Assembly (NCBI GenBank): GCA_905178155.1
Contig: CAJINV010000003.1
Coordinates: 5,857,985-5,921,984, forward strand
Reading direction: 5' to 3'
DNA: 64,000 nt
Origin: Amoebophrya sp. A120
Taxonomy: Eukaryota; Protista; Dinoflagellata
Part shown: positions 29,256 to 56,000 of the stretch, one piece after another
Layout of the letters: each line of letters starts with the position of its first letter
Numbering within the stretch: the first letter of the stretch is position 1
Notes under the pieces: generated by a model
Databases searched by the model: none
Told to the model about the DNA's origin: nothing
What the model saw: only the letters and a program-made list of their open reading frames with translations
Position numbers and translations under genes: made by a program

Positions 29256-32200
29256 TCAATACAAATTGAATTTTCTCGTGTTGTTATGCATGAAGTTCGC
29301 AAGAAAAAGAAAAACTACTACCTTCTGCCCAGTGTGTATCACGAGAAAAAAGTGTTACAGTTACACATTTGTTGGAGTTTCTGCATCACAAATTTTCTCT
29401 GTGTGGCAGAGAAAACTTGTAATGCGAAGATCATAATCGAAAACAGGAAGAAAACGAGGCTCCAAAGCATTTCCTGCATGAGAAAGGTTGTCTGTGATGC
29501 CAGTTTTGCAACACAAGGCGTAACTGTAACACTTTTTTCTTGCGATAGTGTGTGACTCCCGAAGTTGATGGTCCCGGCTCATCTGCAGGGACGAGCCCAC
29601 AGCTATCAAAAGGAAAAATCCCCCCTCCCCATATTGACAAGGCACGTTTTCGGAAATTTGTGTTGCTGATTTGTAGCCACAGATCGTTTCTGTGTTGCAC
29701 GACGGCAACCCCACAGGCTCCGCCGCATTCTACAGGTGGTTTGTCATGCTGTTGACCTACAGCGTAGACGTCTGTCATGCTAAGCGCCTAGGCCAAAACG
29801 TATCTACTCAGGCTTAGCATGGGCCTGGAGTCCTCGCCAGCAAGACAAATCGGATTTGTGTACGCAAATCCAGCATGAGAAACTTCGTTTTGATATGGGG
29901 AGGGGGGTGGATTTTTCATTCTGATAACAGCACCTTTGGAGCCGCGATCAGCATTGCTACCGCCCTGCTGCGGTGGACCACCCGAGCTGCCACTGCCAGT
30001 GACTGCCGCCACAAAGTTAGGGGGAAATGCAGGAGGGACAGGAAACGGTGGGGGACCCTTGCCCCCAGGAGCGGATCCGGTCATCATGCTACTTCCGCCC
30101 CTCGGAGGGGGTGCGATCATGGGCGTCCCGGCTGCAACACCGGTAGTTCCACCGCTTGCTGGCACCATCATATTACTACCGTTGCTGCCTTTATTGGTGC
30201 CACCCGAATTATTGTTGTACGGTGCCGGCGGGGGCGTCAAATGGACCGGCGGCGGCAGCAGGGGTGCGGGCCGTTGCACGTCGTTGAGCAGGTCGAGGGC
30301 GGGTAGTTCGGGAGGCGGGGTTCCTTTTTGTGGAATACCTCCGGAGCTGGTGGTCTTGCCGGCGGAGCTACGATGCGACGGCGTTGGGCCACCGCTGGGT
30401 GCGTTGTTCATGGATGTCATGTTGGATAAAGCCGCACCAGCGCTACTACTGTTGTACATTCCACTGCCCGGCTGCTGCATTTGTGCGGATGTCGAAATGC
30501 TGCTGCTATTGCTTTTCCCCGCCGACGAGGAACCAGCGCTGGATGCATTGTTGCCACCTCCCTTGGATGAAGAAAGGCCTCTAGTATTGTTGCCTCCACC
30601 GGCGGTGCTTCCCGGGCTCGGAGCTGGGGTGCCGGGTGCGCCGGGGGACGGGGCGGGGCGTGTGGGTGCTAGGTTCGGTGGTCCTTTGTTGCTGGTCATG
30701 TTGTGCTGGACATTGCTCATGCTAGTACTGTAGTTGCTGGAGGATGCATTATTGTTGGACGAGGACCCGCCAGCGCCACCCTGCTGCAGCTGTTGCTGTG
30801 CGTTGTTGCTTGATCCGCCCTTATTTGGGGTGTTGCTTTGCTGCGTGGGTGCTGGCGCAGGAGGGTAGCTGTACCCGCTGTTTGGTCGTTCCGGCGCGAG
30901 GATGGATTGCGGTCCACCGTGGGCCTGGCTGGGAGTTCCGTGAAAACTCATCTGGTTCGGATAATGGTTGTTGGGATGCACGTTGTTCCCTCCTGGTGCC
31001 GGAGCACCCATCGAAGTTGGCACGCCCGTACTTCCATGTGGTCCACTGCTACCTCCGTAGTGACCGGAGGACGGGTGATGCTGCTGATGGGGTGGTTGGG
31101 GGCCAGGACCACCCTTGCCACCATGCATGCTGCCCATACCAGGAGCACAACTACCCGCACTGGGGCCCCCCGCACCGGCGCCGGTGCCCGAGGGCCCGGA
31201 TGCCGAGCTGTTTTGATTCAGCACCGGAGGGTATGGGGGCGGTGGCATCTCGGAAATAGACTTCCCGCCTGCTTTACCACCGCACTGCTGCGGCGCTGCG
31301 AGATGTTGACTATTGGGTCCCCCGGGATGCTGGTGCTGCAGGTGCTGTGGATGTTGGTCTAGCGCACCCGTTCCGGCTCCAGGTGGACCGGTCCCCGGGT
31401 GCAGTTGCAGGCCCGGATTGTATGCTCCCTGCTGGTGGTTCAGATTGTGGCTCGAGGGTTGGTACGAGCATCCCGGGGACGGGGTTAGGCCCTTGCTCGC
31501 GGGCTGCGAAGAGGACGCGCCGGCTGGAGCAGGATTGAACATGTCGTAGGGTCCGCTCGATTTGCTATTCGTGTGGCTCGCTGGAGACGGACCGCTCTTC
31601 ATACTGTGCTGAGGAGGGCCGTTGTCCATGTTGCTACCCATTCCTGGCGCCATGCTGCCAAGCGCGCCACCTTTTCCATCCGATCGCTGCAGGTCCAAGC
31701 CGGGAGGTTGCGAACACGAATTGAACCTGGTTTGCGAGAGAAAGTCACGATAAAGCACGAAATCGAAGCATTCTAAGCAGTGTGGCGCACACACGGAGCT
31801 ACCTGCAGGCACGAGCACAGTTCCTGCGAAGAGTGCTGTGCGCGCAGAAGGATGCTGCCAGCGGGCTTAGTGAAAAGCAAAAGAGTAGATTGATATACGT
31901 AGCTAAAGACATACGTCTTTTCTTACCCTCCCATCGACTTGCCCATCATCCCTTTTCCATCTGCGATCATTGGGCCCTTCCCCGCGCCTGTCTTAGACAT
32001 GTCGGTATTGCTGCTGTCTGCAGTTCCGGATCTGGAAAGACATAATTTGGCGGGAAAACTTTTCACATGAAGATGGTGAAAAAAGCACTTCTCAGTTCTC
32101 GTGTGGCTTAGGTAGGATAATCGAAGAAAACAATAAAACCGCAAGAACAGGGTAACAAGGAACTTAGACGTGACCGGGGGGGTCACGTCCGTCCGTCCGG

Positions 32201-35200
32201 CCGGACGGACGGCACGTGACCGGGGGCAGTCCGGCCTCGGGGCGAGTTCGGCGCTCCTGAATGCCGCAGCAACTGTGGCCCTCGGTAGCTAGAAGTCCCC
32301 GGCCGCGTCACCGACGGCGGACCAGCGGCAAGAGCCGCGCCTTTTTCCGTTTTTCCGTGAAAGACCGAACTCATGACCTTTTTTTTTTAGTTGGGCGCCC
32401 GAGCTAGGTAGCTGACACCCCCCGGCCGCGTGACCGGGGGCGGAGCGTGACGAAGAAGGCAGTTCTTCAGTGAAGTGCCGAGCTCATGACCTTTTTTTTT
32501 TTTTTTTAGTTGCCCGGCCGCGCGGTCCACCGCAGCCACCTCCACCTCCTCCACCACGACCGACCCCCGGTCACGTCACGTGCCGTCCGTCCGGCCGGCC
32601 GGACGGACGTGACCCCCCCGGTCACGTCTAGGTTCCTTGTTACCTTGTTCCAATAGTCAATGAAAACCGAGACTCCACGTGGTCATGTGGCAAGATGTCA
32701 ACATCTAAATTGTGATCGTATTCGTACCCGCCTCCGCCTGCCGATAATGCGTATTGCTGGTTGTTCGCTGAGCCCGACATGGGCATATTGTGATGCTGGA
32801 ACATGGATGAGTTCGAGTTGTCAACACCTACACCACCCGAGTTATTGGGCGGTAGCGACGAGGACTGGTGCTGCTGCGCCTGCCCATCCCGTGCGGTAGG
32901 GACGACGGAGTGCGCTGACTGCGATTTCTTTTTTTTCGCTTTAGAGGGGACCGGGCTCGCGCGGTACAGCTCCACGGCAGAAATGGAGCAGCAGTTGTGG
33001 TCCTCGGTGTAGAACGGCGTCTGGCTGTAGTCGTTTGGCCCTAACACAAACCAGCAGTCGTGTCGGGGGACCTGGAAGGTGCGCAGGTAGTGGCCATGGT
33101 ACGGCAGCGTGGGCTCGCCGTCGGCCGCCCGCTCAATCTGGTCCTTTTCGTCCTGCAACACAAACAGCATGCTGTGGTCCTTGTTCTTCAAAATGCCCAT
33201 CAACCGCTTCAGATATTCCTTCTGTTTCACAGATCCACCATCGTCTTCCACGAACTAGTGTATTTTCAGTTGGTCAGTATTTCTGTTTCATGAGCAGGGT
33301 CGTGGTTCTGATGCACACGCAGTTCTATCCTTGCTATTGTTGGATCGTGACCTACTCTCTCATATCGACACACCGGAATAACACGATATCACAAAACAGA
33401 GACTTCTTCTGAGAGCAACAAAAAGTATCACGGTGGACGAGACAACACTGTAGATGAAGAGCTCCAGCATAGAAAATGGCAGTACCGCCTGCACGCCAAG
33501 GACGGAAGAGAAGGTAAAGAGCGCGAAGATGTCGGGCCTGTCTTCCAGTGTGTTCTCGGCGTCTTGCAGCGTTCGATGGATAATCAGATGGACCTCGCTA
33601 CCGCTGTTCAACAAAGCTTTTTGCAGCTCCAGGATTTTGTCGGTGTCGTTGCAACGCTCCGAGCTGAGGACTACTGCGCTCAACATCTGCACACTCTTAC
33701 GCCGTGCAGCCGCAGCGGTGAGCATCTGTTTTCAATTTGATTTTTGATCATGAACCCGGCAGCAGGACGGAAAGCCAATGTGAATATCATAGATATCCAT
33801 GTGGGTCTCGCCGGTACCAGACAAAAGAGAAGAAAGAAAAAAATCGTCGGTTGTTCTTGTCGTGCAGTTCTTTATTTCTTAGCAGTACGTCGCACACATA
33901 CTAACTTATAAAATTCTATACCAATTGTTTGATTTTGGCAACGATCTCAGACATGCGGTAAACATCATCGTGCTGTTCTGCATCCATGTCTGGGCCCCCG
34001 CTCCTTTTACTCCATACGGAAGATCCACCACCTGGGTTGTTATTCGTGTAGCCTTTGGTGCCGTTGGCCGCCAGGCCGCTGTTTTCCTGACTGCCTTGGG
34101 GTCCTTTCGCTCCGCCTCCGCCTTTGGAGCCGTTCATAGATGTTGCAGGGGCGCCACCTCCGACAGAGTGGTGAAACGGCGGCTGCTGCGAACCACCTTG
34201 AGCAGGACCGCCCTTGCTCTGATGGTGCTGGTCCGGCAGCATGCCCGGAGGAGGATTCATATTGGCGCTTTGCTGTTGGTGCCCGCCTCCGCCGACAGGA
34301 CCACCGGGATCGCCGCCCGTGGGACCTTTGCCACCTCCTCCGGGGCCGGGGGCAGGTGCCTGACCCGACATTGCGGCGCTCCTACCGCTATGCACTGCAA
34401 AAGTATCGCACTAGTACATATCGCATGACAAATTTCCCCCAGCATCATCATCATCATTGAGACGAACCCCCTGTGGTCGTCCTCACGGTGTCGTCTTGGC
34501 CCGAGGCTGTTTCGGACAGATGTTGGCTGTGCCCGGCAAGAGGACGGCTCTGCGTGGGCAAATGTTGGCAATGTCCAGCAAGGACGCTTCCGTGGCCCCA
34601 TTTTCTGCCGGTTTTTTGCTTTCGCCAGGATTACCCGCAACACCACCCGCGGACAGTGAAACCCATGGCAGGCTTTCGCCAGGCGGTCCCGGGGAGGGAG
34701 GCCCTCCTCTTGGCACAATGTCGGTTAGATACCAATTTGCTCTCCCCGGAAGCGAGGCGAGCCTCTCCTATGTTGGTGCAAAGCACGAGTGGGGTCGTCG
34801 GCTCGGGCGAGTAGTTGGGGGGGCTACTCGGGGGGCACCGGGACTGTTCGACGAACTACTGCCGGATATGAAAAGTTTCTGGGTCTAAAATGAAATTTGT
34901 AATGCGGATTTAACTTTTGTGATGCATAAATGCGATTAGTACGAGTACGATAGTACTTTTGCAGTGCATAACCGCGCGGATCGAAGCCTCCCGGTGGCGG
35001 TGGATGCGTGCCGTAGGGCGGCTGCGGGTCTGGGTCGAAAGTAGGATTAGTGGTGTTGCAGCTACCTCCTGAATTTGCCAAAGGTGGTGGTCCACCACCT
35101 CCGTGCTGCATTGGACCACCTCCACTTGTTCCTCCGTAGTGCGGCGGTAATGGTAATCCTCCTCCGCCGCTCGAGTTGCTGTGCATGAAAGTACCGTGCT

Positions 35201-38200
35201 GCTGCTGCATAGGATGTGGCTGCGGTTGCATGATGAGCCCACCTCCTCCGTTGCAGGGGCCCCCGGCTCCTCCTTTCATTCCTCCCTGCTGCGGATTGCT
35301 CCCTCCAGGAGCCATATTGTTCATACCCATGCCGGGCGGGGGTTCGGGCATCAGGCCGCTGTTTCCGTAGTGCTGCGGTGGGGGTCCCCCGGGTCCCCCC
35401 GGTGCGCCGCCCCCATACGCGCTGCTGTTCATCGGCAGGTAGTTGTTGCGGTGCTGGTTGTTCATCATGTTGTTGCCGCCGTCGGGGCTCGGGTAACTGT
35501 TGCTCTTCGGCCCCATGCCGGGCGGGATGGAGCAGCCCGGTGCCGCCCCCCCGCGCGAACCGATCTCGACTCGCGGCGCGCTGCTCGGATGCTGGTGGTG
35601 GTCGTAGTGGAACGGATCGTTGTTTCCATTTGATGAACCTACGCCCATCGGGTTGTTTGATGAATTTTGTTGGTGGTTGTACGAGTTATTGAACATCCCT
35701 GGTGGCATAGAAGAAGGACCTCCTGGTGGACCACCGCCTCCCGCAGGCGGGGATCCTCCCATGGGATGTTGCTGATGCTGCATACCCGGCGGCGGGTTTA
35801 AGTTCATGCCACCATGCTGCTGAAAATTATTACTGTTGAGGGAGCTGCTGCTGCACATTGGGCCACCACCTGTGCCTGGGTTGCTGGTGCTGTTCATTCC
35901 GTGCTGGTGGTGCGCTATCGGACTGCTGTTGCTGGACCCGGGGCCGCTCGGTCCTCCACCTCCTGGCCCGCCCATCGCTGGTCCACCTCCCATATTGCCC
36001 ATGCCCGGTGGGGGTTGATGGCCTTGCTTGCCGCCCGGACCAGGCCCATTCAGCATCTGGTACTGCGGCGGCTGCATGTTGCTATTGTTGAATGGCGGTG
36101 GCGGCCCTCGTGGTCCACCCTGCAGGTTGTGCTGCTGCTGTTGATCCATCAGCATACTGCCAGTCGTGGTGCTGCAGTTACTGTTCATCATGCTGTTGTT
36201 CTGCGCCCCTCCACCACCTGCTCCCATGTTGCCACCTGGTCCACTACTTCCCTGGTTGTAAGAACTATTGTTCCCTCCCCCTGTAGGTGGGGGCGGCGCT
36301 TGGTGCTGCTTGTCCATCAGACAAGACATGCCGTTATTAGTGGTGTTACTGCCAGGGTGTGCAGCTTGTCCTCCTGGCTGGTGCCCACCTGGTGGCGGAC
36401 CGCCGAACATCCCCGACATGGGACCACCTCCGCTGCTCGGATGGTGCCCGAACCCGAGCGGTCCTGGCTGTTGTCCACCTGGTGCAGCTCCATTGAGCTG
36501 CTTATTCATCGGCCCACCTGCTCCGCCCAGCGGGCCTCCTCCAAGGTGGCCCTGCCCACCGCCCTTGGTCAGCGGAAGGTTATTGTTGTTACTTCCGCCC
36601 ATCATCATGCCGGGAGGTGGTCCAACGCCCGGGCTTGGACCCCCACCAGGTCCGCCGCCCAGACTGTGATTGCCCAGCGGCCCGCCCATTGACGTATTGT
36701 TCATCAGCATCCGGTTGTTCATGCCGTTCGAGGTTGCACCAGTCCCGCCCATAGTGCTGGTCGTCGAAGGGGTCATCATCATACTCGGAGTGGGAGGCAG
36801 CATGCCTTTCTGCACGAGGGACTCGTCTGTCTCCGCGTGTACGCACAGGCCCTTCCCCTTCCCCTGCCGTTGACGCCGATCGATTTCGTCGTCCCAATCC
36901 TTGTTCCGCCGGGGGTTGCGCCGCTCCTTACGCAACTTCATACTGAGGAAAACCTGAGAATTAATTTTTGTTCGATAGGTGCGTGGTTTCTCTCTCTAGT
37001 TAATAGTAGTTGCAGCCTCAATCTGAATCTTCACAGAAGTCGTGCTGTCCTATTTTGACTACGTTCGTTAAGAAAGCTTAGCATCTATTATGTGCGAAAA
37101 GTAGTGCAGCTTGAGGACGGAGACGACGTGTTTCACGCAGGGCAACAACGAGAATGCAGAGTAGAAGCCTTTTTACCATCAGTGCATAATAAGCGTCGTC
37201 CGCAGCTTTCCGGATTTGCGCACCGGTTAAGAGGTCTAGCTCCCAGTCCGAGTTCTCGACTTCTTCTGCCACCTGCAGTGCTCGCCCCTTTCGGCAGTGG
37301 CCCAACCCATACTCGGCGCAGTACCTAGTGTCAGCAATCAGGATGAATATTTTTCTCGTGAGCATGTTGCATGTCTTCGTGTTCGTAGTGGTAGCTTTTT
37401 GTAGTGGTAGAGGTACTAGAACTAGACATTTGGAAGATTTATTACTCCATCTCATTAGCATCACCGTAGGCGGGAAAGGATGAAGAAGTATAGAACAAGA
37501 CGCGGTGGCGGAGATTACGACGAGTGAAAAATTCGCAGGGAGGCGACCTTACAGCAGCATTAATTTCTTACCAAAGAAACTCGTCGTCGTCCGGAAGCTC
37601 GGGTTCAACCTTTTCGCCGTTGCGTTCTTTCAGGTTGTCTTTGGACCACTTCCGACACTCTTCGAGACCTTTTGGCGTGTTCTCAAAGGTTTTCTGCATG
37701 CGTTGGTTGATGTTCTTCAACACCAACTCACTCCCCAGGACGCACTTGGCCACTTTCTTGTCGCGGATGCATTGCACCACGTAGTCCGGGAGTCTGGGAA
37801 TTCACGTTAATTGAGATGACGAAAGGAAACCTCTCATGAAAATACAAAAAAAGGGTTATCTTATGGTGTGAATCACCTCCCCACGCATCACCTCCCCACC
37901 TCCCTACCTCCCCACCCTGGGGAGGTGCCTCCCCACGTGTGGGGAGGTACCTCCCCAGTAGTGGGGAGGTGGGGAGGTACTTCCCCATCTCCCCACCTCC
38001 CAGTCCTCCAGCACTTTCCCACTGCGTTGCACTTCCCCGTGATGGTCGACCAGAACGTGACTACGTCTGGATGCTTGCTGCTTGGCTTCTGTGCCATCGA
38101 TCTACCTCGCGGCCATGAAGCCAGGTATCTGCCACAACGCACATGAGCCCTCATCCTGCATGACAGATCCGTCTAAGTACGCGGCCACCCACCAGATGGC

Positions 38201-39435
38201 GGCCGGCGGCCCTAAGGTGGCGAACATGGAACGACTCACGGGGCACGCAAGGCAATGCCGCAAGGAGTCAAGGCGCGGGAACACGACGGGGGCAAAGAGC
38301 GCACAACATAAGGACCTAGGAGGGGCGGAGGCAAAACAGTGGCTCGCAAGGGCGGAGAGGGGGGAAAGCGCACGAGGCGAAGAACAGAATCGGCCGTCGC
38401 GCCGGCTGGCCTCGACGACCCTAAACCCCGAACCCTAAACCCAGACCCAAACAACCAAGGCCGCAGCCGGCTCTGCTTCTGCATCACCTCCGGCCGTTGC
38501 GGTGGTGATGCGCCCGCATCACGAGGTGATGCGGGGGAGGTGGGTAGGTGATCCGGGTGGGGGGGTGATGCGTGGGGAGGTGATTCAAAGGGGTGGGGAG
38601 GTGATTCACACTCCTACCCAAAAAAAGGGAGCTGCACTGAGTCAAAAATCTCCTGTACGCGCCTTGTAAATACATGCTTGCATGTTTGGGCGGGATGGTC
38701 TTGAGCTAATAGCAATGAACAAAGGTGGACGAGCCACTACAGAAGTTTCTATCTTGTTGCTCCATCTCTACTACGTCCATGACGAGCGGCACTACATCAA
38801 AAAAAAAGCGTCTACATTACAACTTGTACCTGGTATCCTTGTGTGTGCGGAAGATGTAGACCGTTTTCGGAGTGGCAATCACCAGCGCCGCGACGAGGTT
38901 GATTTTTTTCTTTCCCTGGCCCGGATGCTCCAGGTTCCACTTGAGGCCGAGCCCCACGTGGAGCTCCTCGCGGAGCCGCTTCTCGATGGATGTAAGCTTG
39001 TCGCATTGCCCCTCTTCAACCGTGTGAACCTCGACCGCGTAGGCCGGGTTACGCTCGTACGGGTTACTGAAAAGATGGGCTTGCTGCTCCTCGCGTGCAC
39101 TGCAAATATGTCTCGGTCTGGAATAAAAGGTGGACTTGTAATATTGCTCGTCTCGCATTCCTGTAAATAAATGCACGACCAACAATATGAAAAGCGCGAC
39201 CTTTTGCATTATGCATGAAAACTTCAGTTTCAACAGTTTGTGATGCTCGCTACGCATGAAAGAGCACCCAAAATAGTTCCTGTGCTTAGCTGCATTAAGA
39301 AAGCTGTTCAATTATGACCGTGCAGCATCACAAGTTTCCAGACCCAGACATATTTGCAATGCATACCTCGAGTGCCACCCAGTCCGGAATGTCCTCCTGT
39401 TTCACATTTGTCGCCTTGTAGCCGCCGACGTTCAT
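29256..39435 (-). CDS. ~2,000-aa protein: N-terminal degenerate DEDDy 3'-5' exonuclease domain, two large G/P/M/N/Q prion-like regions and a central globular domain; at least 12 exons, 3' end unresolved
   Basis: Frame is continuous from ATG 39435 after removing introner 39090-39366, GT-AG introns 37794-38829, 37325-37571 and 36954-37176, introner 34389-34970, GT-AG introns 33726-33921, 33255-33485, 32032-32667 and 31727-31926, and introners 29604-29926 and 29337-29547. Exonuclease-like motifs are VGLGLKW, LPDYVVQCIRDKKVAK and SDWELDLLTGAQIRKAADDA. Confidence 0.75.
29337..29547. mobile_element. Introner I1 (211 bp)
   Basis: TIR TATC(AC/GC)RAGAAAAAAGTGTTACAGTTAC, 26/28 match. TSD GTGTG (29332-36/29548-52). 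Lies near the 3' end of the giant gene, where the downstream frame is short, so its intron role is less certain than its TE structure. Confidence 0.85.
29604..29926. mobile_element. Introner I2 (323 bp), family C
   Basis: TIR TATCAAAAGGAAAAATCCCCCCTCCCCATAT (imperfect). TSD ACAGC (29599-603/29927-31). Removal joins SKGAV|GSSLQMSR in frame. Confidence 0.9.
32145..32650. mobile_element. MITE (506 bp) within intron 32032-32667
   Basis: ~80-bp TIR GAACARGGTAACAAGGAAC.TAGACGTGACCG..., 3-bp TSD CAA, and internal duplicated CTCATGACC(T)nAGTTG blocks. Confidence 0.9.
34389..34970. mobile_element. Introner I3 (582 bp)
   Basis: TIR TATGCACTGCAAAAGTA plus an imperfect extension. TSD ACCGC (34384-88/34971-75). 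Removal joins FDPRG|RSAAMSG in frame. Confidence 0.92.
37853..38619. mobile_element. MITE (767 bp) with CACCTCCCCA subterminal repeats, within intron 37794-38829
   Basis: IR GTGTGAATCACCTCCCCAC (37866-84) / GTGGGGAGGTGATTCACAC (38593-611). GGGT...ACCC ends are flanked by A7 on both sides. Confidence 0.85.
39094..39365. mobile_element. Introner I4 (272 bp), family A; can be spliced as a GT-AG intron 39090-39366
   Basis: TIR TATGCATTGCAAATATGTCTGGGTCTGGAA, with the left end mutated to CGTGCACTG.... TSD CCTCG (39089-93/39366-70). Joins DWVALE|EQQAHL. Confidence 0.9.
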
Positions 39436-40928
39436 CGTTCCCAAGGGGAGGCTGACGGCCACGTCCCTTTAATATTTCGTGCCTTATTTGCAACGAAAAT
39501 CGACACCGTCTGTGTATCCGGTTGGCACAGGCAGTCCTTTCGCGAGGGAGTCGTCGCGCACGGCGAAAGTAAATAATCTAGAAAGATTTATCAGGAGTCG
39601 GATGGACCGTGTGAGGCATTCACTACCGCGGTGCGTGATCCGGGTTGTCAACGCAATACTGCTTCTGTGCCCGCCCAGGAAGGCGTAGGTGTGACCCCGG
39701 TAGGGGGCGAGGAGAGCCCTTCGAGACCTATACCAAAGAAGGCTGGTTGCGCTTCATTTTTGGGTGGCAACGAGTAGCGTTGCCGGGTGCGGCGTCACGC
39801 ACCCAAAAATGCAACCCAACGAGCAACCAGCAACCAAGAATTGCAATTGCTCAATTGTTTTTGATGCAAATAACGAACTTTGGCCGATAAAAATACTTTC
39901 TCTAGAGTTGGAAGCAAACTCTTTCTGCGTGGTAACATAAAAGGTATTTAGGAATAGGAACGGGGATAGATCAAGGCCAGAATTCTCTACTGTGTGACGA
40001 GACGCAACACGAATTAACTTGTTCGATCAGATGGAAAATTTAGTGATGAAAATTACTTCCTCAAAACTCAAATCAGATTTACAGATTTGGATGACCACCA
40101 GACACTGCTGGACTTACTTTCTACCTTAAGCTTTACACACGAACCAACCAATCAAAAAAAGCGAGCAAAACCAATGACCTGTTCGATCTCTTCTATCGAC
40201 GAACTTTTACTTACAAAGTTTGCTCGCAGCCGCGGCCAGATTGAATGCAGAGTAAGTAGCTCTATCACGATCCAAGCCCTGGGTGGAAAAATAAAGGAAA
40301 AAAAAATACTGTGACATAGTGGAAACAACTCGTGCGCCAAGAGGATACACACTAACGAGAACGTATGCGTTCCATTTTGACCGGCCTTGGAAAACAGGCC
40401 GGTAAATTAGGTCTAATCTTTTCTAGATCCCGACTTACATGATAGCTCTGACGTGTAATATAACATCTGGAATAACGGATCTTCACGCTGCAGAGAACTG
40501 ACCTGCTATCTGTGTGTGTCACGATAGCGATACTTTTTATATCATTGCGGATCCATCCTCGTTAAAGAAACAATCAGCCACAAGCACAAGCTGCAGCTTT
40601 GCGAATGTAAAATTTGAATCTCAACGTCCGGTCTTGCAAAGCAGATGTAACCAGTTTTTATGTGTCAGTTTCTTCTCGTTATCCGACGGTTTCCACATTG
40701 CTTGTTTTTTTCGGCTTCAAAGAATATCGTCGGCTTTTATTCTCCACGGAAGCATCGACTTGGTACGAATACAATTCCTGTCAACGTTCATTGTGAATGA
40801 ATCCCTGTCCCAATCTTGCCGGAAATAAACAGAGAAGTAGTCATTTAATCTAATGTCGTTGTTGTATTTTCTTTATCGATTGTTCGAGCTCAAGATAAAA
40901 AAAGAGCGTGAACTTCATTGTCCTCGAA

Positions 40929-42007
40929 GCTTGTCGAGGCGCAACTACATTGTCCTCGAAAAAGGAGCACAATCCGGATGAAAAAGGTGAACATCGGAGC
41001 CGGGAGGAGCCTATGCGACCCCTAGGGGGGCGGGCGTACTTAAACGCTCCGGCAATCTCTATTCCTTGTTCCTGACGGCCACATCAAGGCGATTCTCGCT
41101 GCTAGCGCCGTGTTGCTCGATTTTGCCGCGAAGTACCGGCACACATCGGTCACAAGCTACTAACCTGTAGGTGATGCGGTCGGGGGGCATCCTGCGCTTC
41201 CGCGGATGCTTTGCGCCCTCCTCGTCTGCCCAGCTTCTTTGACAGAAGAGGAGGGGCGCTGCAATGCTCTCCCGTCTGGGCTTGCATTCCTCACAAAGGC
41301 CGGCGCGATGCGGAAGACAGATAGAAGACAAGCTACTAATGATAACGGGGCCCCCGGCTAAGCCGGTGCCACCGCGCACAGCACTCCAGCCACGCGGGCG
41401 AAGAACTGGGGCAGCTCCTGGCTTCCTCTTGCTGGTTCTCGGCAGTCGCGGCCCTGCATGCCGAAAGCGCCTGCGCTTGGCGTGCGTCCCTTTTGTTGCA
41501 GTGGCCGCGTGCTCTGACGCGCCACCTGCGCCTCAGGGTTGCGCCGTTGCGCCTGGTGCTTGCGAGCGCTGAGGGGCGCGCGCGGTAGCTAGCTAGCTGC
41601 TGGCCAACCTAACTGCATTGAGACCCGCACCCAGAAGCCGGGGCCGGGTGCGTTTAGCTTCCCTGCGGGAGGCAGGTTGCGTATCGCTCACTGTCTTCCG
41701 CTACGTGGTCGTCTATGCGAAGAGACGTTTGCACGAGCTGCGAGCTCGTGCTAGGCGCCCCTCCCTACAAGGCGAGGCTTTTTGTTCTAAACGACTAGCA
41801 TCCGATAGCTTCGTCCCTTCCCTACAAGGGCGGGCTGTTCGTTAGCAAGACGGACAGACTTTCCGTGTCCGAAGTCTGTGCTATGATGTAGTTCGCAGCC
41901 GAACAATTGACTACCTGCTGGCAGCCCCCCTTCCCTGCAAGGGCGGGGGCACGAGGCTTGTCGAGGCGCAACTACATTGTCCTCGAAAAAGGAGCACAAT
42001 CCGGATG
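40929..42007. repeat. Perfect 52-bp direct repeats (40929-40980, 41956-42007) flanking a GC-rich ~975-bp segment
   Basis: GCTTGTCGAGGCGCAACTACATTGTCCTCGAAAAAGGAGCACAATCCGGATG is present twice. The interior has three CC(C/T)TCCCT(A/G)CAAGG motifs. Confidence 0.85.
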
Positions 42008-42217: not shown

Positions 42218-44624
42218 TTAAGAATATTCCGTAGTATTTGAGCCGCCTGGGCTTGGACTTCTGAAGTTCCGCGACTTCCGGGGACTCGTGAGCGAGTACA
42301 CGGCCGGCGCCACCGCGGTAGAGCGGCGCTCCCGATGGGTCAGCATTTCGCCAACTTGATCGAAGTTTCCGTAGTCCGGATGAGCTTTCACCTGTAGGTA
42401 CTTTGTTGTCCCGGCGAACTGGGGGGGAACACGGAGTTGTGCTACCCCAGGCGACTTCTCCTGCCCCTGGTATTGATGTGAAGACGAGTTGTTGGTACCA
42501 GGCACAGGCGCGTCGAGGAGCCGTTTGTTGGGTGGTGCGGGTCGTGCGGTGGCCAGAACTCCGAAGTGACTGCTACCACTTTTTTTCCTCCGCCGACGCC
42601 CATGATGTTGAGCAGGGTGGTCGTGGCCAGAGCCAGCGACCGCACTGGACACCTCAGATTGTTCGGAGGTTCTACTCGATCGTTCTCTTCGGTTGTACTT
42701 CTGGGATGATGTTCTTGCGTGGCCACAGTCTTTGTCTTGCTCCTTCTCGCTCGCACTCGCGTTTTTCGACGCATACGAAATTCGACTGGACTATGGCGTT
42801 CTCAACTGTTACATTCTCAACTGTTACATGGATTTGTCATGCAAAATGACCATGAGCCACCAGACAATGAAGCTGCTTCGCATGACAAATTCTCGGAGGG
42901 GTAAACAGCATCTAAATCCGTGCCAAATTTGTGATGCAAGACTTGCAAGCTTGCCCCTTTTCCTATTGCTGTTTTAGCATGACAAATTCATGTAACAGTT
43001 GAGAATGTAACAGTTGAGAGCGCCATATGGACCGCGACAACTTGCGGCCACCACGATCCAGGAAATTACGCGCCGTGGTCGAGTATCAAATGTAAAAATG
43101 TCTGGGTCTGGAAGAGTCATGCAGTTTCTGCATGACACAGAAGGTCTGGCATGGCAGCTCTAGCATCACAGGTTTTGAGAAGCTTCCGCAATGCCGAACC
43201 CGCATGACAAATCCCCCATTTTGGTGACAGAAAGTGGGCAGCTTTTGCTACCTATGCATGAGAGATTTTTGTGTGTTCTGAAATGCGCATCACAAATTAC
43301 ATCCTTCCAGACCCAGACATATTTGCATTTGATAGCGAGTTCCTTCGAGGAGTCAATGGGACAAAAACTTGTTCATCTCCATTGTCATTTGCGTTCCTCC
43401 GCACCTCCGGGCGAGGAAGTTGTACATTCTGATTCGTCCTCTCGCCCCTTTGGAGGTGCTCCTGCTGCGTCGAGGAGACCGAGCTTCTTCGTGCCTCTTT
43501 CATCTTTGCCTTCATCAAAGAACTACTACTCTTGCGCCGATGCAGCCGATCCGCTTCGTCTCGCATTCTTCGCGCTTCCTCCGCCTCCGCTTGCTGGATT
43601 TTCTGCAGCTTCTTCTGCCGCCGCCGTTGCACAAGACCCGTCAGAAACAGGGACCCGATGATCAACCCCGACATACATCCGAAGGGGATAAAGAAGTTTT
43701 TCATGCTATCCTATGTAAAAACGTCGTTACCCTTTTTACCCGATTGTCATGCTAAACAAATTAGAATATAGAATTACTAATGCTAATGCAGCTGCACACT
43801 TTGCCCCTTGGCAGTGCATGAACCAAGTCGATTTGTGATGCGGCTGCACCAGCCAAGCACGGCTACACTACCGACTCAAGGTTCTCATGGGCAACAGAAA
43901 AAGGTCAGTTTATTTACTTATTTACACAGGATACATGCCAACTTCCCAGTCTTGCGTAGCCTTCAGAGTGTATACCTCGTGCTTCCACAAGTTTCGCCAC
44001 ATCTGGTAGGGCCTATGAGAGTGCACAACTCTTCCACCTCATTCGAGACGCATAACCAGCAAGAGAGACAGTGCCACAAAGCGAGTAGCCTCGGAAACAC
44101 AAATTCAAATTTGGACACAGATGATCCTATATATTCGTAGTACTGTGTAAACGGGGGTCGGTTCCCGAAACTTGTCATGCGAAGACCTGTGCTGTACAGT
44201 GTGCTTTTGCAGAGTAAACGAGCAGGGGGACGAGGGGGGTTGTCGTTCGTTGTGCAATCGGATAGGGTAGCGGAGAGAGTTTGTCTCGTTCTGACCGGAG
44301 CCACTTCGTGTCCAGGAAAAAACTGTCCTTGATAGCCGAGGTAACGGGGTCCATAAACAGGAGCCGGAGCTGGCGCACGCCGTGGTCGTCGGGTTCGGTA
44401 CTTTCAAGGGTTTCGAAAACACGTTGCTCCTCGGAGTCGCCCTCCACCGCCGGCGCCAGGCCCGACAGTGTGTTCACGGGTGCTCCTGGAACTGCCGGAA
44501 GATGCATCTGCGACGCATTCATCTTTCCTTTTGTTTTCGGCGGGAAAGTAGAACGAGTGGAGGTGAAAGCCAGCACTGCGCGCGTGAACAGAGCTTGGAT
44601 CAGAATTGCTCCACTGTAAACCAT
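42218..44624 (-). CDS. Hypothetical single-pass membrane protein interrupted by at least three introners; 5' exons uncertain
   Basis: Removing I7, I6 and I5 gives one frame: ...YQMWRNLWKHEVYTLKATQDWEVGMKNFFIPFG(TM)...RRNSTTARNF...LSRSSRISY...NTTEYS*. A signal-like N-terminus starts at 44624. Joins between 44030 and 44270 are not resolved. Confidence 0.65.
42792..43027. mobile_element. Introner I5 (236 bp)
   Basis: ~51-bp TIR TATGGCG.TCTCAACTGTTACATTCTCAACTGTTACATG.ATTTGTCATGC with 2 mismatches. TSD TGGAC (42787-91/43028-32). Confidence 0.93.
43084..43334. mobile_element. Introner I6 (251 bp), family A
   Basis: 31-bp TIR TATCAAATGYAAAWATGTCTGGGTCTGGAAG, 29/31 match. TSD TCGAG/GCGAG. In-frame removal. 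Confidence 0.92.
43707..43933. mobile_element. Introner I7 (227 bp)
   Basis: TIR TATCCTRTGTAAA, 12/13 match. TSD CATGC (43702-06/43934-38). In-frame removal. Confidence 0.88.
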
Positions 44625-44939: not shown

Positions 44940-47611
44940 TTACGCTTTATGGCCTTTTGAAGATTCTGTACCAGGACCGAGCCCGCTGGGGTACGCGGTT
45001 GTCGCCGGGGTCATCGTGCGGTTTCCCGACGACAATGCATGATCGGCCGCCACGGGCGTAGTCGCTCTGCTTGATGGCCGTGCGCGGGAAGCAGCAGGCG
45101 AGGTCGGATGCTGGTAGGAATGGCTTATCAATTGCTGCGCACGCAACTGCTGCAGCAGTCCCGGGTGGCGAAAACGTGCGTCGGTGGCCCGCTGCACGCA
45201 CAGGTGCAACGGTTCGTTGAGGAAGCAGCGCGTGCCCGAAGTGGAAACGGGACGGACCCCCACCGGCCCGTGCTTCGGCCTCGTCACGCTGAACACGTGC
45301 ACCTCGGCGATCTTCAACCGAGACCCTTCGCGCTATCAAAGTTAATAAAAAGGCCCTGCTTGTTTTTAGCGACCTCCCTGACTAAAGCTAAGTAGCAAGA
45401 AACAACTCGTCCACCCGACGGTGCAAATCCATGGGAAGATACTTACGAGCGAAGCGCTGTGTTGCAAATGACGAGAGGCGCAGGAGTGAAGAAGGCAGCA
45501 CAAGAACTTGTCACGTACACAGACAAACGACAGAAGTTGTAGCTGTCCCACCTAGATTCTAAAACTAGACCAACGGTATTAACGCGGCAGTGGTCCCTTT
45601 GTTGAATACAACATGTCCTCTGTATTGTTTGGATGTTGAAGCTTTCATCCAGTATGTTCTTGAGCTACCTTGCTGGTCGATTCTGATGACTGGGGCGGGG
45701 CACTTTTCCATCTTGGTATGTACATCAATATGTCCTGGTCCTCCTCCTCGTCGTCCTCCTGGTCTGGAGCTCCTCGTTTCACATCTTGATCGTCCTTCGC
45801 CGCCGGTGGTGCGCGCAGTAGTGCGTGTTTCACCTGGTCGGCCACACCCGGCTTTGCGCGCATTGGCGAAAAGTCGACACGCTGCCGAGGTTGAAAGGGC
45901 AGCCGCCGCTGCTCGCGCGCGTTCGATTCGCCGCGACCGTCTTGTTCGTAGGCTGTTCGGAAAGGCCGGTCTTGGAGTCGCATCATACCGGTGTGCACGT
46001 GCTTCTGCTGGCGGTGGAGCACATAGTGCTGCAAAAAGGGGCCGACGGCTTGCGTTACGATCGCCGATTCCATAAACTCGCGCACAGTCCCGAGTTTGAC
46101 GGTTTCATCGTGCTCATTCAAGAGGGTCTCTTGCTTGCCTGCCTTTGGGGTAGAAGTTGTTGTGCTTCTTCTACTAGCTCTTTTCCGAGATGAAGCTCTT
46201 GCAGCGCCACCACCACTACCCTCTGACGGAGCGGAATTCGCTGACGCAGCAGTGGGTTGCACTAGCGCCGACCCATCTCCGAGCTGATCGGGAGGAGAAG
46301 GTTGTAGTTCTTCTGCTCCAGGTGCCCCTCGCACAGCTTCCTCCCCTACAACTTCTCGCGGCTCTGTGGGGAGCGTTCCTGCTTCTGCCTCGTCGAGCGG
46401 GTGGAACTCTCCGTCGTGCGTGCCCGAGTAGAGAGGGAAAGTATTGCCCTGAAGATCGACGTAATGAAAGTGCCACGCAGACGGGTTTTCTCGGGTCACC
46501 TCCGGTGGGTTCGACGCCAGTTCCTCCCGGTCGATACTGGTGTCGGACCGGACGTCGTCGTCCCTCTCAAGGATCTTCTCCTCTTCCGGTTTCAGCTGCG
46601 CCCCGGAGCTCTTCCGGATGAGGAGTCCCCGTTTTATGCGGGCCTTGTGTTCGCGAGCCGACTGCCGTTCCGAACGGAGGACCTGTTCCTCCGGGCTCGG
46701 GGGCGCATAGAAATCGGTCCAGTCTGTACCCGGCTCGATGCTGTGGCCCAGCAGCCACGGCGGGTGGTCCCCGTCAGTCGTCAGTGGAGAACCGCTGCTT
46801 GTAGTTTTCTGCACGGAAGAACGGAACACCGGGTAATGAATATCCACGTCCGGAAATTTATACGTCTCCAGTGTCCGGCTCATCAGCCGCCCATTTTGCA
46901 CAGCAACCGTCCCGATCTTGCGGGTTAACCCGAGTGTCCAACAGAAAAAGTGGTGCGGTATGGTATGAGGCTATAGGATGTAAAATGTATATCAACAACA
47001 CTGGACGAAGATTGGCTTTCAAAAAGATGCCATTCATCTCGAGCCCGAATACATGAGAAGTTTGGTGTTTTGCAGGAGATGATGCAGCAGATGTTAGCAT
47101 GTACCTACATGCACACAATATTGATCCACCGAGCTACACAATTTTGCTGCGGGATACCGAGGTATGCAAGCCCGTATACATGCCGACTCACCACCGGCGC
47201 GTGGTTCGTCGGCAACTTCACTTTCCCCGTCACTGGGTCGACAGGAAGAACTGTTTTGTAACTCGTCGTGCCGGTTCGCTTCAGTAAGCCCTCGATGCTG
47301 CGGGGTTGTTGTTCGAGTTCGGCCCCTGGTATAATAATTGCCGTGGCGTTCGTTCCGCCGCGTGCTGAAGAGGAAGAGCCCTGCTCTCGTGAAGGAGCAA
47401 TCGCACGTTCTGCGCCAGACCTGCCCCCACGTGATCTTCGACTTCCGGTGGAGGGTCGGCCTCTGCCCCGGTTCACTGCGGGACTCGAGGCCCCACCTGC
47501 AAACCAAATCGACGAGGAAGATGAACTGAGGCAGAATACGGGTGGGAGAAAACCCAAAAAGCCCGAACCATGCACCGAGAAAAGAAACAAAAAACGGAGT
47601 ACCATCCTCAT
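44940..47611 (-). CDS. Hypothetical protein with signal-peptide-like N-terminus; exons ~47611-47117, 46916-45719, 45328-44940
   Basis: Three - strand ORFs can be joined by a GT-AG intron 46917-47116 and the degenerate introner I8. No domain recognised. Confidence 0.55.
45334..45718. mobile_element. Degenerate introner candidate I8 (385 bp)
   Basis: Ends TATCAAAGTTAATAAAAAGGCC and (rc) TACCAAGATGGAAAAGTGCC. Flanks CGCGC/TGTAC differ only by transitions. Removing 390 nt joins two ORFs in frame. Confidence 0.45.
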
Positions 47612-51999: not shown

Positions 52000-53082
52000 C
52001 GTGGTCCCTGTTACTCTCTTCAGACTGTAGCTGACCAGAGGGTCGCCACGCGTTCCGTGGTCTGGTACCGACATGATTGGAAGGGGAAATAACCTCCTCC
52101 GACTCTAGATGAAAAATAGGTTATCTATACTTCTCGAGTTTTACCTCGTCCAGGAGGCCGAGAATGGTTCAAATTTTCTACACAAAGGAAAAAAAAACTG
52201 CACAAGAATGCCTGTTGTGTTATTTGTCACTACAACAATTTTGTTGAGCACAACAAAGGAGAAAAACGATTGCTGTGCCAAAAGAGGGGTAGAAATCGTA
52301 TGTGTGAACTACTTTAGTGGCTCAAATGGAAGCACAATGAAGCTCAAGAAGATAAAACGGCTCAATAACTGAATCCGTTGATGTTTGTACTGCAACACAC
52401 AAATATGCACACGTATGACAGTTGTAGCAGGTTCTTACAGGAGAAACAAGGGGTACTGCGGATTTCAGAAATGATGTGAATTGCGTCAGTCGCAAAGGAA
52501 AAGAAAGGGGTCCACCGCAAAAAAACGAACCTAGTTTGAAAAAGCGAAAATGGAAAATTACCGAGTGCGCGACTCTACTCTCACGAATTTCATTTATTTT
52601 GCCTACCTGAATTTGGCTTTTCCGAATTTATTTGTGGAACGAAAGGCTTGATTTTTCGAATTAACGACGCACGTCGATTCGTTGTGTACGTACCGATGAT
52701 TATTGTTGCATTCGTACGAGCGCTACGCAGTGCCGATGCAGTCGTTTGCCTGTCCCGTCCGCAAGTCTAGTACACGATATGTAATATTGCAGAAAGCTGC
52801 GCAAACGTGTACCGAATCTTGGAAAGTTAAGTCGAAACAGAACACTGGAACAGTACATGCGCGCTTGTTTTTTTTTCAATTCTACAAATTCTCAAAGCGC
52901 TGTGCACGCAAAGTGAGGAGGCGGGGCAGCGCTCGCTGCAGCTACTGGCCCCGGTAGGAACATGGCGCATGTGATTGTGCACGGTTTTGTGGCTGGTTTA
53001 TTTGTAAGTATGTGTACGTTCTTCCCGAAAGCACAATTTTCGGGTGGACAGAAAAGTGCAAGTGAGGCAAAGGGTCGCTACT

Positions 53083-56000
53083 CTAGCCTCCTTCGAGTTC
53101 CGCATTTATCTGAGCAAGGGTAGCCGGCTGCGCAGGTTGCAGAAACGGCTCGCTACAGTGTTCACGGTGTTCCGCAACGTGAGTAACCATATTCGACAGC
53201 CATTGTCTGACCTGCAGTTGAATCACGGTCAGCTGAAGCAACTCGCTCCCCATGCTATTTAGATCGCGGAGAAGGCGGTTCCCCCATGGGTGCGCAGGTG
53301 TATAGTAGGTCGCAGCGGTGGGCGAAGAAGATGCGTTGCTTTCGCCTCTATCTGGACTCTGTAGCGGAGTTGCACTTGCGGCTAGCTGATCTACGAAGTG
53401 CGGATTCTGTGCCACTTCGAGTAGCGATTGCCGGAACCGTGTTTGCATCGTGTCGAAAGCCCTGGCGAAGATTCTCTTCATGTTTTCGCCAGATATCACT
53501 TTCAGCAGTACTCGGTACATGCTACTTACATCCTTGACGAGCGCTGCACACACATCGTGTGGCGCAGGCGGTAGTGCCGTTTCAGCATTTGCAGTGGTAG
53601 AAGAAGCTCCACCGCCTGCGATATTAGTAGCAACTGTGTCATCTGACTGCTGCTCTACCTCTGTTACAACTGTTGCAGAACTCCCGCGCGCTCTACTGGT
53701 ACCGACCTTTACAGCTCCGCGATCCGAATCCTCGGCTTGTGTGGAGGTAGTGTCTGGATCGTCGCCTTCTACTGTTGGGTCACCCCGAGCAGGTGCCGTA
53801 CCTTCGTCTACTTCTTGGTTCCCGTCTGCTGCTTTTTCCTTTATTTCTACTGCGGCTGCGCCCTCGGTGGCGAGAGCTTCGCTTCTACCGCTTTGCTCGG
53901 CCGCAAGAGCAGTTTCCACCTGTGCCGTCAGGGGACTACTTGATGTCGCCGCCGCGAGAAGTAGCTGCGGTGGCAAGGCCGGGTGTGGTGTGGAGAACAG
54001 CGCCTTGGCGTGCACGTCGTATCGCATTTCCAGGATCTCCGACAGTTTTCCCAGAAGCTTTTGGTGGTGGTCTTCGAAGTCGCCAACCGTTTTTCCGAAA
54101 TCAGCCAGCAGCGCCATTCGTGTCCGGTTTACAATCGACGCTGCAGCGGAGGTTGTTATACTAGCAGGCTGCTGCAGTGCGGGTGCTCCGGCGGTGGGCG
54201 TCACCACAGACGAGGATGACGAACTACTTGAGGGCCTCTCGAGAATCAGGCACTTTTGCAGCTGCTCTTGAAGTTTCGGAACCAATGCCATGTACATCCC
54301 GCACGTCTGGCTGCATAATGCAATGTTGGTCGCGGTCACTTTCTTTAATACCTGATTTTGATATAGAAAAGATAAAGATTTAAAAAAAAGATTTGCACGA
54401 TGAAACGAAACTAGGAATAGTGCAGATTTGCAGGCCTGCAAGTTGACACTTTGCCAGTAGTAGAAAACGAAATTTATATATATACCTTGTTGGTTTTTGC
54501 TTCTCCGAACAACACAAGCTGCTGCATTTGCCGATTGAAAAGTTTGAAGAGATGGGTGAGCCGCTGCACTGCTTCGACGGCAACGCTTTGCAGCGCGCGG
54601 CAGAGCTGCAGGTATTCCTGTGCGATTTTAAGCATCATCAGCGCACTGGGAACCACCAGGAAGTGGCTCTTCTCCACTTTCAAAAACTTCTCAGAGTGCT
54701 GGCTCTCTTGCTCCAGATGCTGTTGTCGTGCGGGTACGGACGGTGTTTGCTGATCGGCGGAAGAAGCAGCGCCGTTACCAGCACCCTGAGTGGCTGAAGC
54801 AGGATTGATGTTCGCGGTATCAGCAATACCAAGTATGCGCTTTTCGGCCTCAGATACCTCCGGTGTTGTTGTCACGGTTTCACCGCCCTCGTGAAAGGAC
54901 TGCAACATTTGTTGAACCTCGGCGGCATCCGGCATCATGGCGGGCGGTGCGGCAGGTTTGTGCGGTGCATCTTCTGGTCGTACGGGGGCAACACTACTCG
55001 GCGCTGTTGAAACAGTACTCGCTGCTCGGGGCGAAAACTCTACTTCCTCGGTTTCGCCGGCCAAAAACCGAACGTAGGCCCGGTGCTCCTTGGTTGCGTC
55101 GCAGCGTTCCCACCGCTCTTATCAAAAGTAAAAGTGTCTGGGTCTGGAAACTTGTGATGCTGGGTGGCGTCTCATGATGAGGCTACAAATGCTGGCTCAG
55201 CATGACAAGTTTCTGAGCTCCTAGGTGTTGCCTATTCTGCATGACAGACTGCGCTTCTGCATCACAGAAAAACGGAGCTCTTGGGTAACGTGCATGACAG
55301 ATTTAAGAATCATGCCAGACAAGCATGACAGACATGAATTCTTCCAGACCCAGACATTTTTACAGTTGATAGCTCTTCAGCTAAAACCATCTGCACGTGC
55401 GCGACCTTGCGGTGGTGAAACTCTTCCACGTATCGAAAGGAAAAATCCCCCCTCCCCATATCAAAACGGAGTTTCTGTGTACACGAATCAGGTTTGTATT
55501 GCGGAGAGGCATTGCGGCCAGATCCCCGGGCTAGGTAGGGGCGTATGGGTCTAGTTGTTCAGCACGGCAAACGGCTCCCCTTTAGGCCCAACAGCATGAC
55601 AAATCGCCTCCATAATGGGGCGGAAGCTTCTGCCCTTGTCTTCTTGCAAAACAAATGTGATTTGTGACCTCAAATCAGCAACACAAATTTTCGGAAACAT
55701 AGCTTTTCGATATGGGGAGGGGGGATTTTTCCTTTTGATACCACGATTGCCTTCGATTGGGTGTACAGAATCGCACGAAGGCTCGCTGCGACGTCCACTA
55801 TTTTCTTGCTCACGACTGCTGCACTTACACTTACAGCCGCTTGAGGAGGTACTATCGTGATGTCCTCGACAGGTGCATTTTTTGAGCTGGTTCCCCTCTT
55901 ACTGTCTACCGCTTCGGAGCTCGAAGACACTGATGATGAAGCACTGCTGCTGCTGCCGTCAACTTTCATTTCTTGTGCCAAAACAGTTGCTTGTTGCGCA

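What the first reader, a model, noticed from the sequence alone, without database searches (positions are those of the whole stretch)
29383..55601. Shared internal motif GCAT(C/G)ACA across introner families with different TIRs
Seen: I count 25 exact copies (either strand) in the nine clear elements, about 2.7 kb in total. Positions are 29383, 29493, 29742, 29773, 34423, 34918, 39239, 39325, 42835, 42880, 42930, 42977, 43130, 43163, 43202, 43287, 43745, 43834, 55153, 55200, 55239, 55259, 55292, 55323 and 55594. Chance expectation under uniform composition is well below 1. Outside these elements I noticed it only near 2249, 38158 (inside another MITE) and 44173, in a non-exhaustive visual scan. 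Inference: a common protein-binding signal, for a transposase or for a factor that marks these introns for removal, persists while the TIRs diversify.
Basis: partly seen in the sequence, partly recalled or inferred. Interest (0 to 1): 0.78.

Follow-up and report, generated by a model that had tools for sequence, protein, structure and literature searches.

The report
Shared spaced motif inside Amoebophrya introners
At least 13 families of transposon-like introns, in what is likely the marine parasite Amoebophrya, carry the same short conserved DNA word in both orientations, usually paired 31-33 bases apart, which likely is a docking site for the still unfound protein that copies these elements rather than a splicing signal.

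Summary
In detail: 25 of 29 exact copies lie in the nine elements (2,664 bp), and one 'outside' copy sits in a tenth element. The elements fit the published Amoebophrya A120 introners (TAT ends, 5-bp duplication); RNA-type contigs skip 8 of these 10. In 335 further elements from another assembly the motif runs at 10/kb against 0.23/kb elsewhere, in 13 of 13 multi-copy families. It widens to (T/A/C)GCA(T/A)NACA(A/G)(A/G). It is constrained: core columns are more conserved than spacers in 8 of 8 families, while masked interiors are mostly unrelated. It has a layout: same-orientation pairs 31-33 bp apart in 12 of 13 families, often with a decayed inverted copy midway, and first sites 37-40 or 45-49 bp from the end. 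It shows no transcript-strand bias (312 vs 346), and two decayed elements without it are still skipped. Best reading (0.6): a double-stranded-DNA binding array for the mobilising protein, like known subterminal repeats; binding and transposase are not shown. This scan noted the motif twice before on other DNA; I found it in no paper. Conservation, layout and strand tests are new here.

The parts
29337..29547 (.). E1: TAT..ATA element, 5-bp duplication GTGTG; exact motif at 29383(+) and 29493(-); 5 profile sites
   Evidence: removal from RNA not tested
29604..29926 (.). E2: element, duplication ACAGC; exact motif at 29742(-) and 29773(-), a 31-bp pair; 6 profile sites
   Evidence: RNA-type contigs start matching at 29927, the first base after the element, but the joint was not displayed
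34389..34970 (.). E3: 582-bp element, duplication ACCGC; motif only near the ends (34423+, variant 34898-, 34918-), none in the ~430-bp GC-rich interior
   Evidence: skipped with one duplication copy (587 nt) in contig X3 record 9; removal joins two open frames
39094..39365 (.). E4: element (left end CGT instead of TAT), duplication CCTCG; exact motif at 39239(-) and 39325(+)
   Evidence: (277-nt skip)
42792..43027 (.). E5: element with 55-bp inverted ends, duplication TGGAC; exact motif at 42835(-), 42880(+), 42930(-), 42977(+)
   Evidence: 241-nt skip in 4 of 4 runs
43084..43334 (.). E6: element, duplication TCGAG/GCGAG; exact motif at 43130, 43163, 43202, 43287 (all +) and variant at 43256; spacings 33, 39, 54, 31
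   Evidence: (256-nt skip in 4 of 4 runs)
43707..43933 (.). E7: element, duplication CATGC; exact motif at 43745(-) and 43834(-)
   Evidence: 232-nt skip in 4 of 4 runs
44014..44264 (.).
   Evidence: (256-nt skip in 4 of 4 runs)
45334..45718 (.). E12 (new, ends inferred): old element, one end TAT and one TAC, duplication eroded; no exact motif (best profile score 7.5, under the cut-off of 8); non-GT-AG
   Evidence: (390-nt skip in 3 of 4 runs)
46935..47156 (.). E11 (new): element, one end TGT and one TAT, duplication CCGAG; no exact motif and no profile site of 8 or more
   Evidence: (227-nt skip in 2 of 4 runs)
55120..55371 (.). E8: element in a Vps54-like gene, duplication GCTCT; six exact copies: 55153(-), 55200, 55239, 55259, 55292, 55323 (+)
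   Evidence: (257-nt skip in 3 of 4 runs)
55431..55740 (.). E9: element, duplication CCACG; exact motif at 55594(+) and three variants
   Evidence: (315-nt skip in 3 of 4 runs)

Best explanation
The motif is a conserved, regularly spaced word inside one superfamily of non-autonomous TAT..ATA, 5-bp-duplication elements, and it likely serves as a repeated binding site on double-stranded DNA for the protein that mobilises them (a transposase or its accessory factor). Shown: enrichment in all families, conservation above spacers, 31-33 bp same-orientation pairs often with a decayed inverted copy midway, preferred distances from the ends about 10 bp apart, no strand preference in the transcript, and skipping of elements that lack the motif. 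Inferred: one protein binds the sites cooperatively on one helical face (31.5 bp is three turns), helps pair the two ends, and cleavage occurs at the invariant TAT; lineages that lose the array stop copying, so the word survives while TIR interiors and spacers drift. After insertion the word would decay, and intron removal would depend on the element ends. The 32-bp layout is probably also ancient shared descent, kept by this constraint.
For: Replication: 849 exact copies in 83,788 bp of called elements (10.1/kb) against 83 in 355,931 bp of the rest (0.23/kb). 305 of 336 elements carry an exact copy. GCATGACA occurs in 13 of 13 families. Constraint: core identity 0.85-0.98 against spacer 0.68-0.82 in 8 of 8 families; mean excess 0.114 against a scrambled-profile null with maximum 0.063 in 300 trials; it holds for AT and GC columns with CpG removed. 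Strand: 312 against 346 copies on the transcript strand in 264 elements; family 3 (sites 85:2 in one orientation) inserts 8:5 and family 8 (13:0) inserts 5:2. Layout: a 31-33 bp same-orientation pair in at least half the copies of 12 of 13 families, null mean 1.7, best window anywhere 4.9, 0 of 20,000; best inverted-site offset is 16-17 in 12 of 19 pair groups, 0 of 200 permuted profiles reach the score; first sites mostly at 37-40 or 45-49 bp from the end, 10.5-bp phase R = 0.67 for 25 family ends and 0.52 for 25 singleton ends. Dispensable for removal: E11 and E12 are skipped without it, and four other skipped introns (three CT..AC, one) hold no exact copy. Decay after insertion: rare-change rate in the core 0.029, equal to TIR interior 0.027-0.030 and above TAT 0.016. 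Precedent: Lemi1 proteins bind subterminal repeats of the Emigrant MITE cooperatively (PMC1636448, abstract).
Against: No binding was tested and no transposase was found: six interior frames of two long elements gave no Pfam match, and Farhat et al. found none in A120 (PMC7789003, section 16). Sites fill the whole interior of short elements, not only the ends, and point inward in some families and outward in others. Outside the 31-33 class, helical phasing of same-orientation spacings is weak (mean cosine 0.29, n = 14; 18, 39, 49 and 59 are off phase), and the end-distance period is loosely fixed (9.5-12 fit alike). Core changes are still only 0.45 of the spacer rate on terminal branches, and 0.029 is below the 0.049 per-pair duplication mismatch, so some constraint after insertion is not excluded. 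Motif bases pair more often than spacers in predicted RNA folds (0.72-0.87 against 0.55-0.64, no null). Family 2 shows a 17:6 orientation skew. Families are related, so the 13 are not independent trials. Only two motif-free skipped elements were seen, one starts with GT in the 1+4 register, and all RNA-type runs are contigs of one sample whose RNA nature is a guess.
Confidence: 0.6

Rival explanations
1. A host DNA-binding or chromatin factor, not the transposase, binds the array, and marks these introns on the DNA for co-transcriptional removal or for chromatin layout; elements carrying it are tolerated and spread.
For: Fits orientation independence and spacing as well as the best explanation. 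No transposase is known in A120 and U1 snRNA was not detected (PMC7789003, passages). Some constraint after insertion is not excluded.
Against: E11 and E12 are skipped without the motif. The core decays at the TIR-interior rate and faster than TAT. Other introns and other repeats in the window hold no array.
Confidence: 0.15
2. Ancient common descent only: all families derive from one end module with a 32-bp repeat, and the motif is a leftover with no present function.
For: The shared 31-33 bp pair with a decayed inverted copy midway looks like one ancestral unit. All families share one end grammar. Masked interiors keep a slight excess of similarity (mean z 0.76).
Against: Within families the core changes about 2.7 times less than spacers on internal branches (0.016 against 0.045) and beats scrambled-profile controls. 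A leftover would decay at the spacer rate.
Confidence: 0.1
3. The motif is structural in the RNA: opposite-orientation copies pair into internal stems that compact the intron and bring the ends together.
For: Motif bases are predicted paired more often than spacers in 9 of 9 families, and motif pairs with motif in 34-69% of its bases in the seven mixed-orientation families.
Against: Pairing needs complementarity, not one fixed word across families. Family 3 has a one-orientation array with only 14% motif-motif pairing. Same-orientation 31-33 bp pairs cannot form a stem. Variable positions 4-5 do not need to match between copies.
Confidence: 0.1
4. The motif is a single-stranded RNA splicing enhancer (it contains GCAUG, like the RBFOX word; recalled, no call) that recruits a factor replacing U1.
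For: Strong enrichment in non-canonical introns and absence from four other skipped introns in the window. U1 not detected in Amoebophrya (PMC7789003).
Against: No strand bias (312 against 346), and one-orientation families are inserted both ways, so both a word and its reverse complement would have to work. Skipped elements without it exist.
Confidence: 0.05

Closest known systems
Introner elements / non-canonical introns of Amoebophrya sp. A120 (Farhat et al. 2021, PMC7789003; abstract, passages, section 16 and one supplement text seen)
   Same: Inverted repeats starting TAT + 7 loose bases + 3 or more A; short direct repeats at the boundaries; about 240-nt length; non-GT-AG removal; many families; co-oriented gene blocks.
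   Different: The text I saw describes only terminal repeats and reports no family-specific IR motif. It names no internal motif, spacing or conservation pattern. Supplementary figures (S19-S25) are pictures I could not see and may show it.
Subterminal repeated motifs of MITEs bound by a partner transposase: Emigrant/Lemi1 (PMC1636448, abstract seen); Ac/Ds and CACTA subterminal repeats (recalled)
   Same: A short word repeated inside the ends of non-autonomous elements, in both orientations, more conserved than its surroundings.
   Different: Here one word spans at least 13 families with diverged TIRs and unrelated spacers, fills the whole interior of short elements, has a fixed 31-33 bp pairing, and sits in elements that are spliced as introns. 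No partner protein is known.
IS3EU/GingerRoot DNA transposons (PMC10045372 and PMC6839031, passages seen); A120 family 38 labelled 'Ginger, 5-bp TSD, TA/TA termini' in Dataset S2 of PMC12130899 (row seen)
   Same: TA..TA termini; capture of unrelated interior sequence (as in E3); integrase-like enzyme suggested for an A120 family.
   Different: Duplication is 5 bp here, usually 6 bp in IS3EU/GingerRoot; TIRs are 16-55 bp here, 100-150 bp in GingerRoot; no transposase found here; no subterminal motif is mentioned in the passages seen.
Ginger2/TDD (PMC2836005, passages seen)
   Same: TDD-4 and TDD-5 make 5-bp duplications.
   Different: Ginger termini are TGTNR; here TAT. Ginger2 prefers AT-rich targets; here the duplications show no strong base preference.

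Membership tests
Amoebophrya A120 introner elements | Inverted repeats starting TAT, seven loose bases, then an A-run | tested here: met
   Family-weighted end profile has A at 0.74-0.90 in positions 11-14 (TAT itself was required by the finder, but deviates in only 20 of 1,221 positions in similarity-found ends)
Amoebophrya A120 introner elements | 3-5 nt direct repeats at the boundaries | tested here: met
   5-bp duplication exact in 8 of 9 reader elements and in 261 of 351 similarity-found copies
Amoebophrya A120 introner elements | Removed from transcripts without fixed GT-AG ends | tested here: met
   E3-E10 skipped by element + 5 nt in RNA-type contigs of one sample; end dinucleotides vary; RNA nature of the runs is a guess, supported by their skipping of CT..AC introns
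Amoebophrya A120 introner elements | The window comes from that genome | not testable with these tools
   No genome held; identity inferred from matching features and from earlier scan notes
Subterminal transposase-binding repeats | Short word repeated near both ends and conserved above its surroundings | tested here: met
Subterminal transposase-binding repeats | Bound by the cognate transposase and needed for transposition | not testable with these tools
   No transposase identified; needs binding and transposition assays
IS3EU/GingerRoot | TA..TA termini | tested here: met
IS3EU/GingerRoot | 6-bp target duplication | tested here: not met
   5 bp (skips equal element + 5)
IS3EU/GingerRoot | Integrase-related DDE transposase in autonomous copies | tested here: inconclusive
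   No autonomous copy in 64 kb + 476 kb; six interior frames gave no Pfam hit; most of the genome was not searchable
Ginger1/Ginger2 | TGTNR termini | tested here: not met
   Ends are TAT; one TGT end seen, in E11
Single-stranded RNA splicing enhancer | One polarity on the transcript | tested here: not met
   312 against 346; families 3 and 8 inserted both ways
Single-stranded RNA splicing enhancer | Needed for removal | tested here: inconclusive
   E11 and E12 skipped without it, but n = 2 and efficiency cannot be read from contigs

The most novel reading that the evidence does not exclude
One protein, possibly host-encoded or domesticated, recognises the internal 32-bp module instead of family-specific TIRs, and so licenses almost any TAT-ended sequence to be copied and tolerated as an intron. 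This would explain about 2,000 families with no transposase found, and the same DNA-bound protein might also guide the U1-less spliceosome to young copies.
Probability: 0.15. Interest if true: 0.85.

Novelty: new variant of a known kind. Interest (0 to 1): 0.52.

Why it matters
How A120 introners move and how they are spliced are both open (PMC7789003: no transposase, no U1, no family-specific IR motif). A conserved word with a fixed spacing, shared by all families, is a ready bait for pull-down of the missing protein and a search key for autonomous copies. It also suggests that the many 'families' are one superfamily served by one machine, and that the mobility signal (internal array) and the removal signal (ends) are separate.

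Tried and rejected
No RNA holder was listed on record; the 2026 raw RNA run X21 laid only 97 reads, on TIR pieces, and told nothing. Autonomous partner: no long element with matching ends apart from 834 bp (L032) and two spurious spans; no Pfam hit in six interior frames; two TIR patterns found nothing in viral contigs; I listed 178 long frames in the loci but did not scan them. Paired-motif scans gave 11 prokaryotic and 17 viral loci, which are short tandem repeats or REP-like palindromes picked by my own pattern; I did not scan them for TIRs. L136 looked orthologous to E5-E6 but has other duplications and another exon, so no orthologous after-insertion test was possible. A general 16.5-bp lattice scored well at first (p = 0.002) but same-orientation spacings outside 30-34 do not follow it (cosine -0.04), so only the 32-bp unit is kept. 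The idea that the TIR itself holds a decayed copy is inconclusive (24 of 200 permuted profiles score as high). The first free EM run merged both orientations into TG-N5-CA and was replaced. Literature; the four motif spellings gave 0 hits in the supplement text of PMC7789003 and in 12 of 14 supplement files of PMC12130899 (files 13 and 14 not searched). One search listed one Amoebophrya paper (PMC6482013) with a single occurrence of one spelling, which I did not open. Roy et al. 2023 (Curr Biol) was not read.
Full report
Observation. All 25 positions are exact copies; the window holds 29 (shuffle mean 5.0, maximum 11). The copy at 44173 lies in a tenth element, 44014-44264.

What the elements are. 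Their ends follow TAT + 7 loose bases + an A-run, the pattern published for Amoebophrya A120 introners (PMC7789003, passages). The organism is inferred, since no genome is held. Contigs of four RNA-type runs (one sample; RNA is the tool's guess) skip E4, E5, E6, E7, E10, E8 and E9 by element length plus 5, and one contig skips E3 likewise. The same contigs skip CT..AC introns, and contigs of run X1 run through an intron that X3 and X4 skip, which supports their being RNA. E1 was not tested and the E2 joint was not displayed. E6 and E10, whose duplications differ, are compatible with the '1 before, 4 after' register of earlier scan notes but do not fix it; E4 reads GT..AG in that register.

Replication. 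A pattern for one family's TIR, which holds no motif, fetched 169 loci from another assembly, merged to 475,658 bp. The finder called 336 elements, against 4 in shuffled sequence; 335 remained after removing one duplicate. With the nine window elements they form 13 multi-copy families and 19 singletons. Exact copies: 849 in 83,788 bp of elements, 310 in 35,939 bp of missed or partial element sequence, 83 in 355,931 bp of the rest. The rest is still above its shuffles (18-26); 27 of the 83 lie in clusters, probably decayed elements, and the others are unexplained. The profile is (T/A/C)GCA(T/A)NACA(A/G)(A/G)T, at 19.6 sites/kb against 0.57 in shuffles and 1.9-6 sites per copy in every family.

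Not recent descent. After masking ends and sites, 3 of 78 family pairs exceed all 30 shuffles, and only one clearly. Within families, core columns are more conserved than spacers in 8 of 8 families tested, those with 9 or more copies (p from 6e-4 to 1e-8). The mean excess is 0.114; scrambled profiles give at most 0.063 in 300 trials; the contrast holds for AT and GC columns without CpG. Alignment anchoring on the motif was not excluded.

Layout. A same-orientation pair 31-33 bp apart occurs in at least half the copies of 12 of 13 families (random placement: mean 1.7; best 3-bp window anywhere 4.9; 0 of 20,000). In 12 of 19 pair groups the best inverted match lies 16-17 bp after the first site (0 of 200 permuted profiles), so the unit looks like site, decayed inverted site, site. 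First sites lie mostly 37-40 or 45-49 bp from the element end (10.5-bp phase R 0.67 for 25 family ends, 0.52 for 25 singleton ends; ends beyond 65 bp, 1 and 11, were left out). Three helical turns are 31.5 bp, which suggests binding on one face of duplex DNA; this is inference. Other spacings fit a helical period only weakly. The families are related, so part of this is shared ancestry.

DNA or RNA. Gene strand was called by a codon model for 255 of 335 locus elements, with no locus giving mixed calls, and the model agreed with the window's gene blocks. With the nine window elements, the motif lies 312 times in one polarity and 346 in the other. Families 3 and 8 carry one-orientation arrays (85:2 and 13:0) yet insert 8:5 and 5:2. 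Family 2 is skewed 17:6, the only such case in 13. Two decayed elements, E11 and E12, hold no exact copy and no profile site of 8 or more and are still skipped. Rare changes at near-fixed columns run at 0.029 in the core, 0.027-0.030 in the TIR interior and 0.065 in spacers; TAT deviates at 0.016; duplication pairs differ at 0.049 per position. The core is slightly less protected on terminal than on internal branches (odds ratio 1.24, p = 0.015). Together these favour a constraint during copying over one during splicing, but sparse sampling leaves a host role open. Predicted RNA folds pair motif bases more than spacers (up to 8 copies per family, no null), which keeps a structural rival alive.

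Mechanism. Most likely one mobilising protein binds the array on duplex DNA and acts at the invariant TAT ends, making a 5-bp duplication; the spliceosome then removes element plus one duplication using the ends. Shown: enrichment, conservation, layout, strand neutrality, skipping. Inferred: binding, the identity of the protein, helical phasing, and the division of labour between array and ends. No transposase was found.

Comparison. It works like the subterminal repeats of Emigrant bound by Lemi1 (PMC1636448, abstract). By termini the nearest superfamily is IS3EU/GingerRoot (TA..TA), but the duplication is 5 rather than 6 bp, so I do not file it there; Ginger termini (TGTNR) are not met. Dataset S2 of PMC12130899 labels one A120 family 'Ginger, 5-bp TSD, TA/TA termini'.

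Novelty. The introners are published. I found the internal motif in no paper text or searchable supplement (figures, two supplement files and Roy et al. 2023 unseen). Two earlier notes of this scan report it on other DNA; they are not independent support. Verdict: real, a new variant of a known kind, a useful handle on an open question; interest 0.52.

Noticed in passing
window 34440-34890 (interior of E3); L032 632-1465; L024 505-1608: Family-type ends enclose long unrelated interiors with no motif sites in the middle; E3's interior is itself repeated in the genome and gave no Pfam match. Looks like sequence capture.
   Followed up: partly
window 45334-45718 and 46935-47156: Two old elements with eroded ends or duplication and no motif are still skipped in RNA-type contigs, one with AT..GC ends.
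   Followed up: yes
family 0 copies in L001-L169: Left and right TIR variants (first 8 bases) occur in many combinations, which suggests recombination or end swapping between copies.
   Followed up: no
L136 300-850 against window 42792-43335: An E5-family element followed about 57 nt later by an E6-like element, same order and orientation as in the window, but with different duplications and exon. Probably coincidence.
   Followed up: partly
window 32145-32650, 37869-38612, 40925-42007: Three other repeats (76-bp inverted ends; G/C-rich inverted ends; a 56-bp direct repeat) carry no motif array; 40929-41955 is skipped in one X3 contig across the direct repeat.
   Followed up: partly
L174 2210-2560, L175 2415-2590: Bacterial REP-like palindromes bounded by the same word, followed by 16-17 bp tandem copies. 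Found by my own pattern, so no evidence of a link; CGTC-type REPs (PMC3733652, listing only) may be the class.
   Followed up: partly
similarity-found element ends in L001-L169: The terminal TAT changes about half as often as the rest of the TIR (0.016 against 0.027-0.030), a hint that the host selects on the very ends.
   Followed up: partly
window 52952-57492 (-): E8 and E9 interrupt a Vps54-like gene (Pfam PF07928 in two pieces).
   Followed up: no
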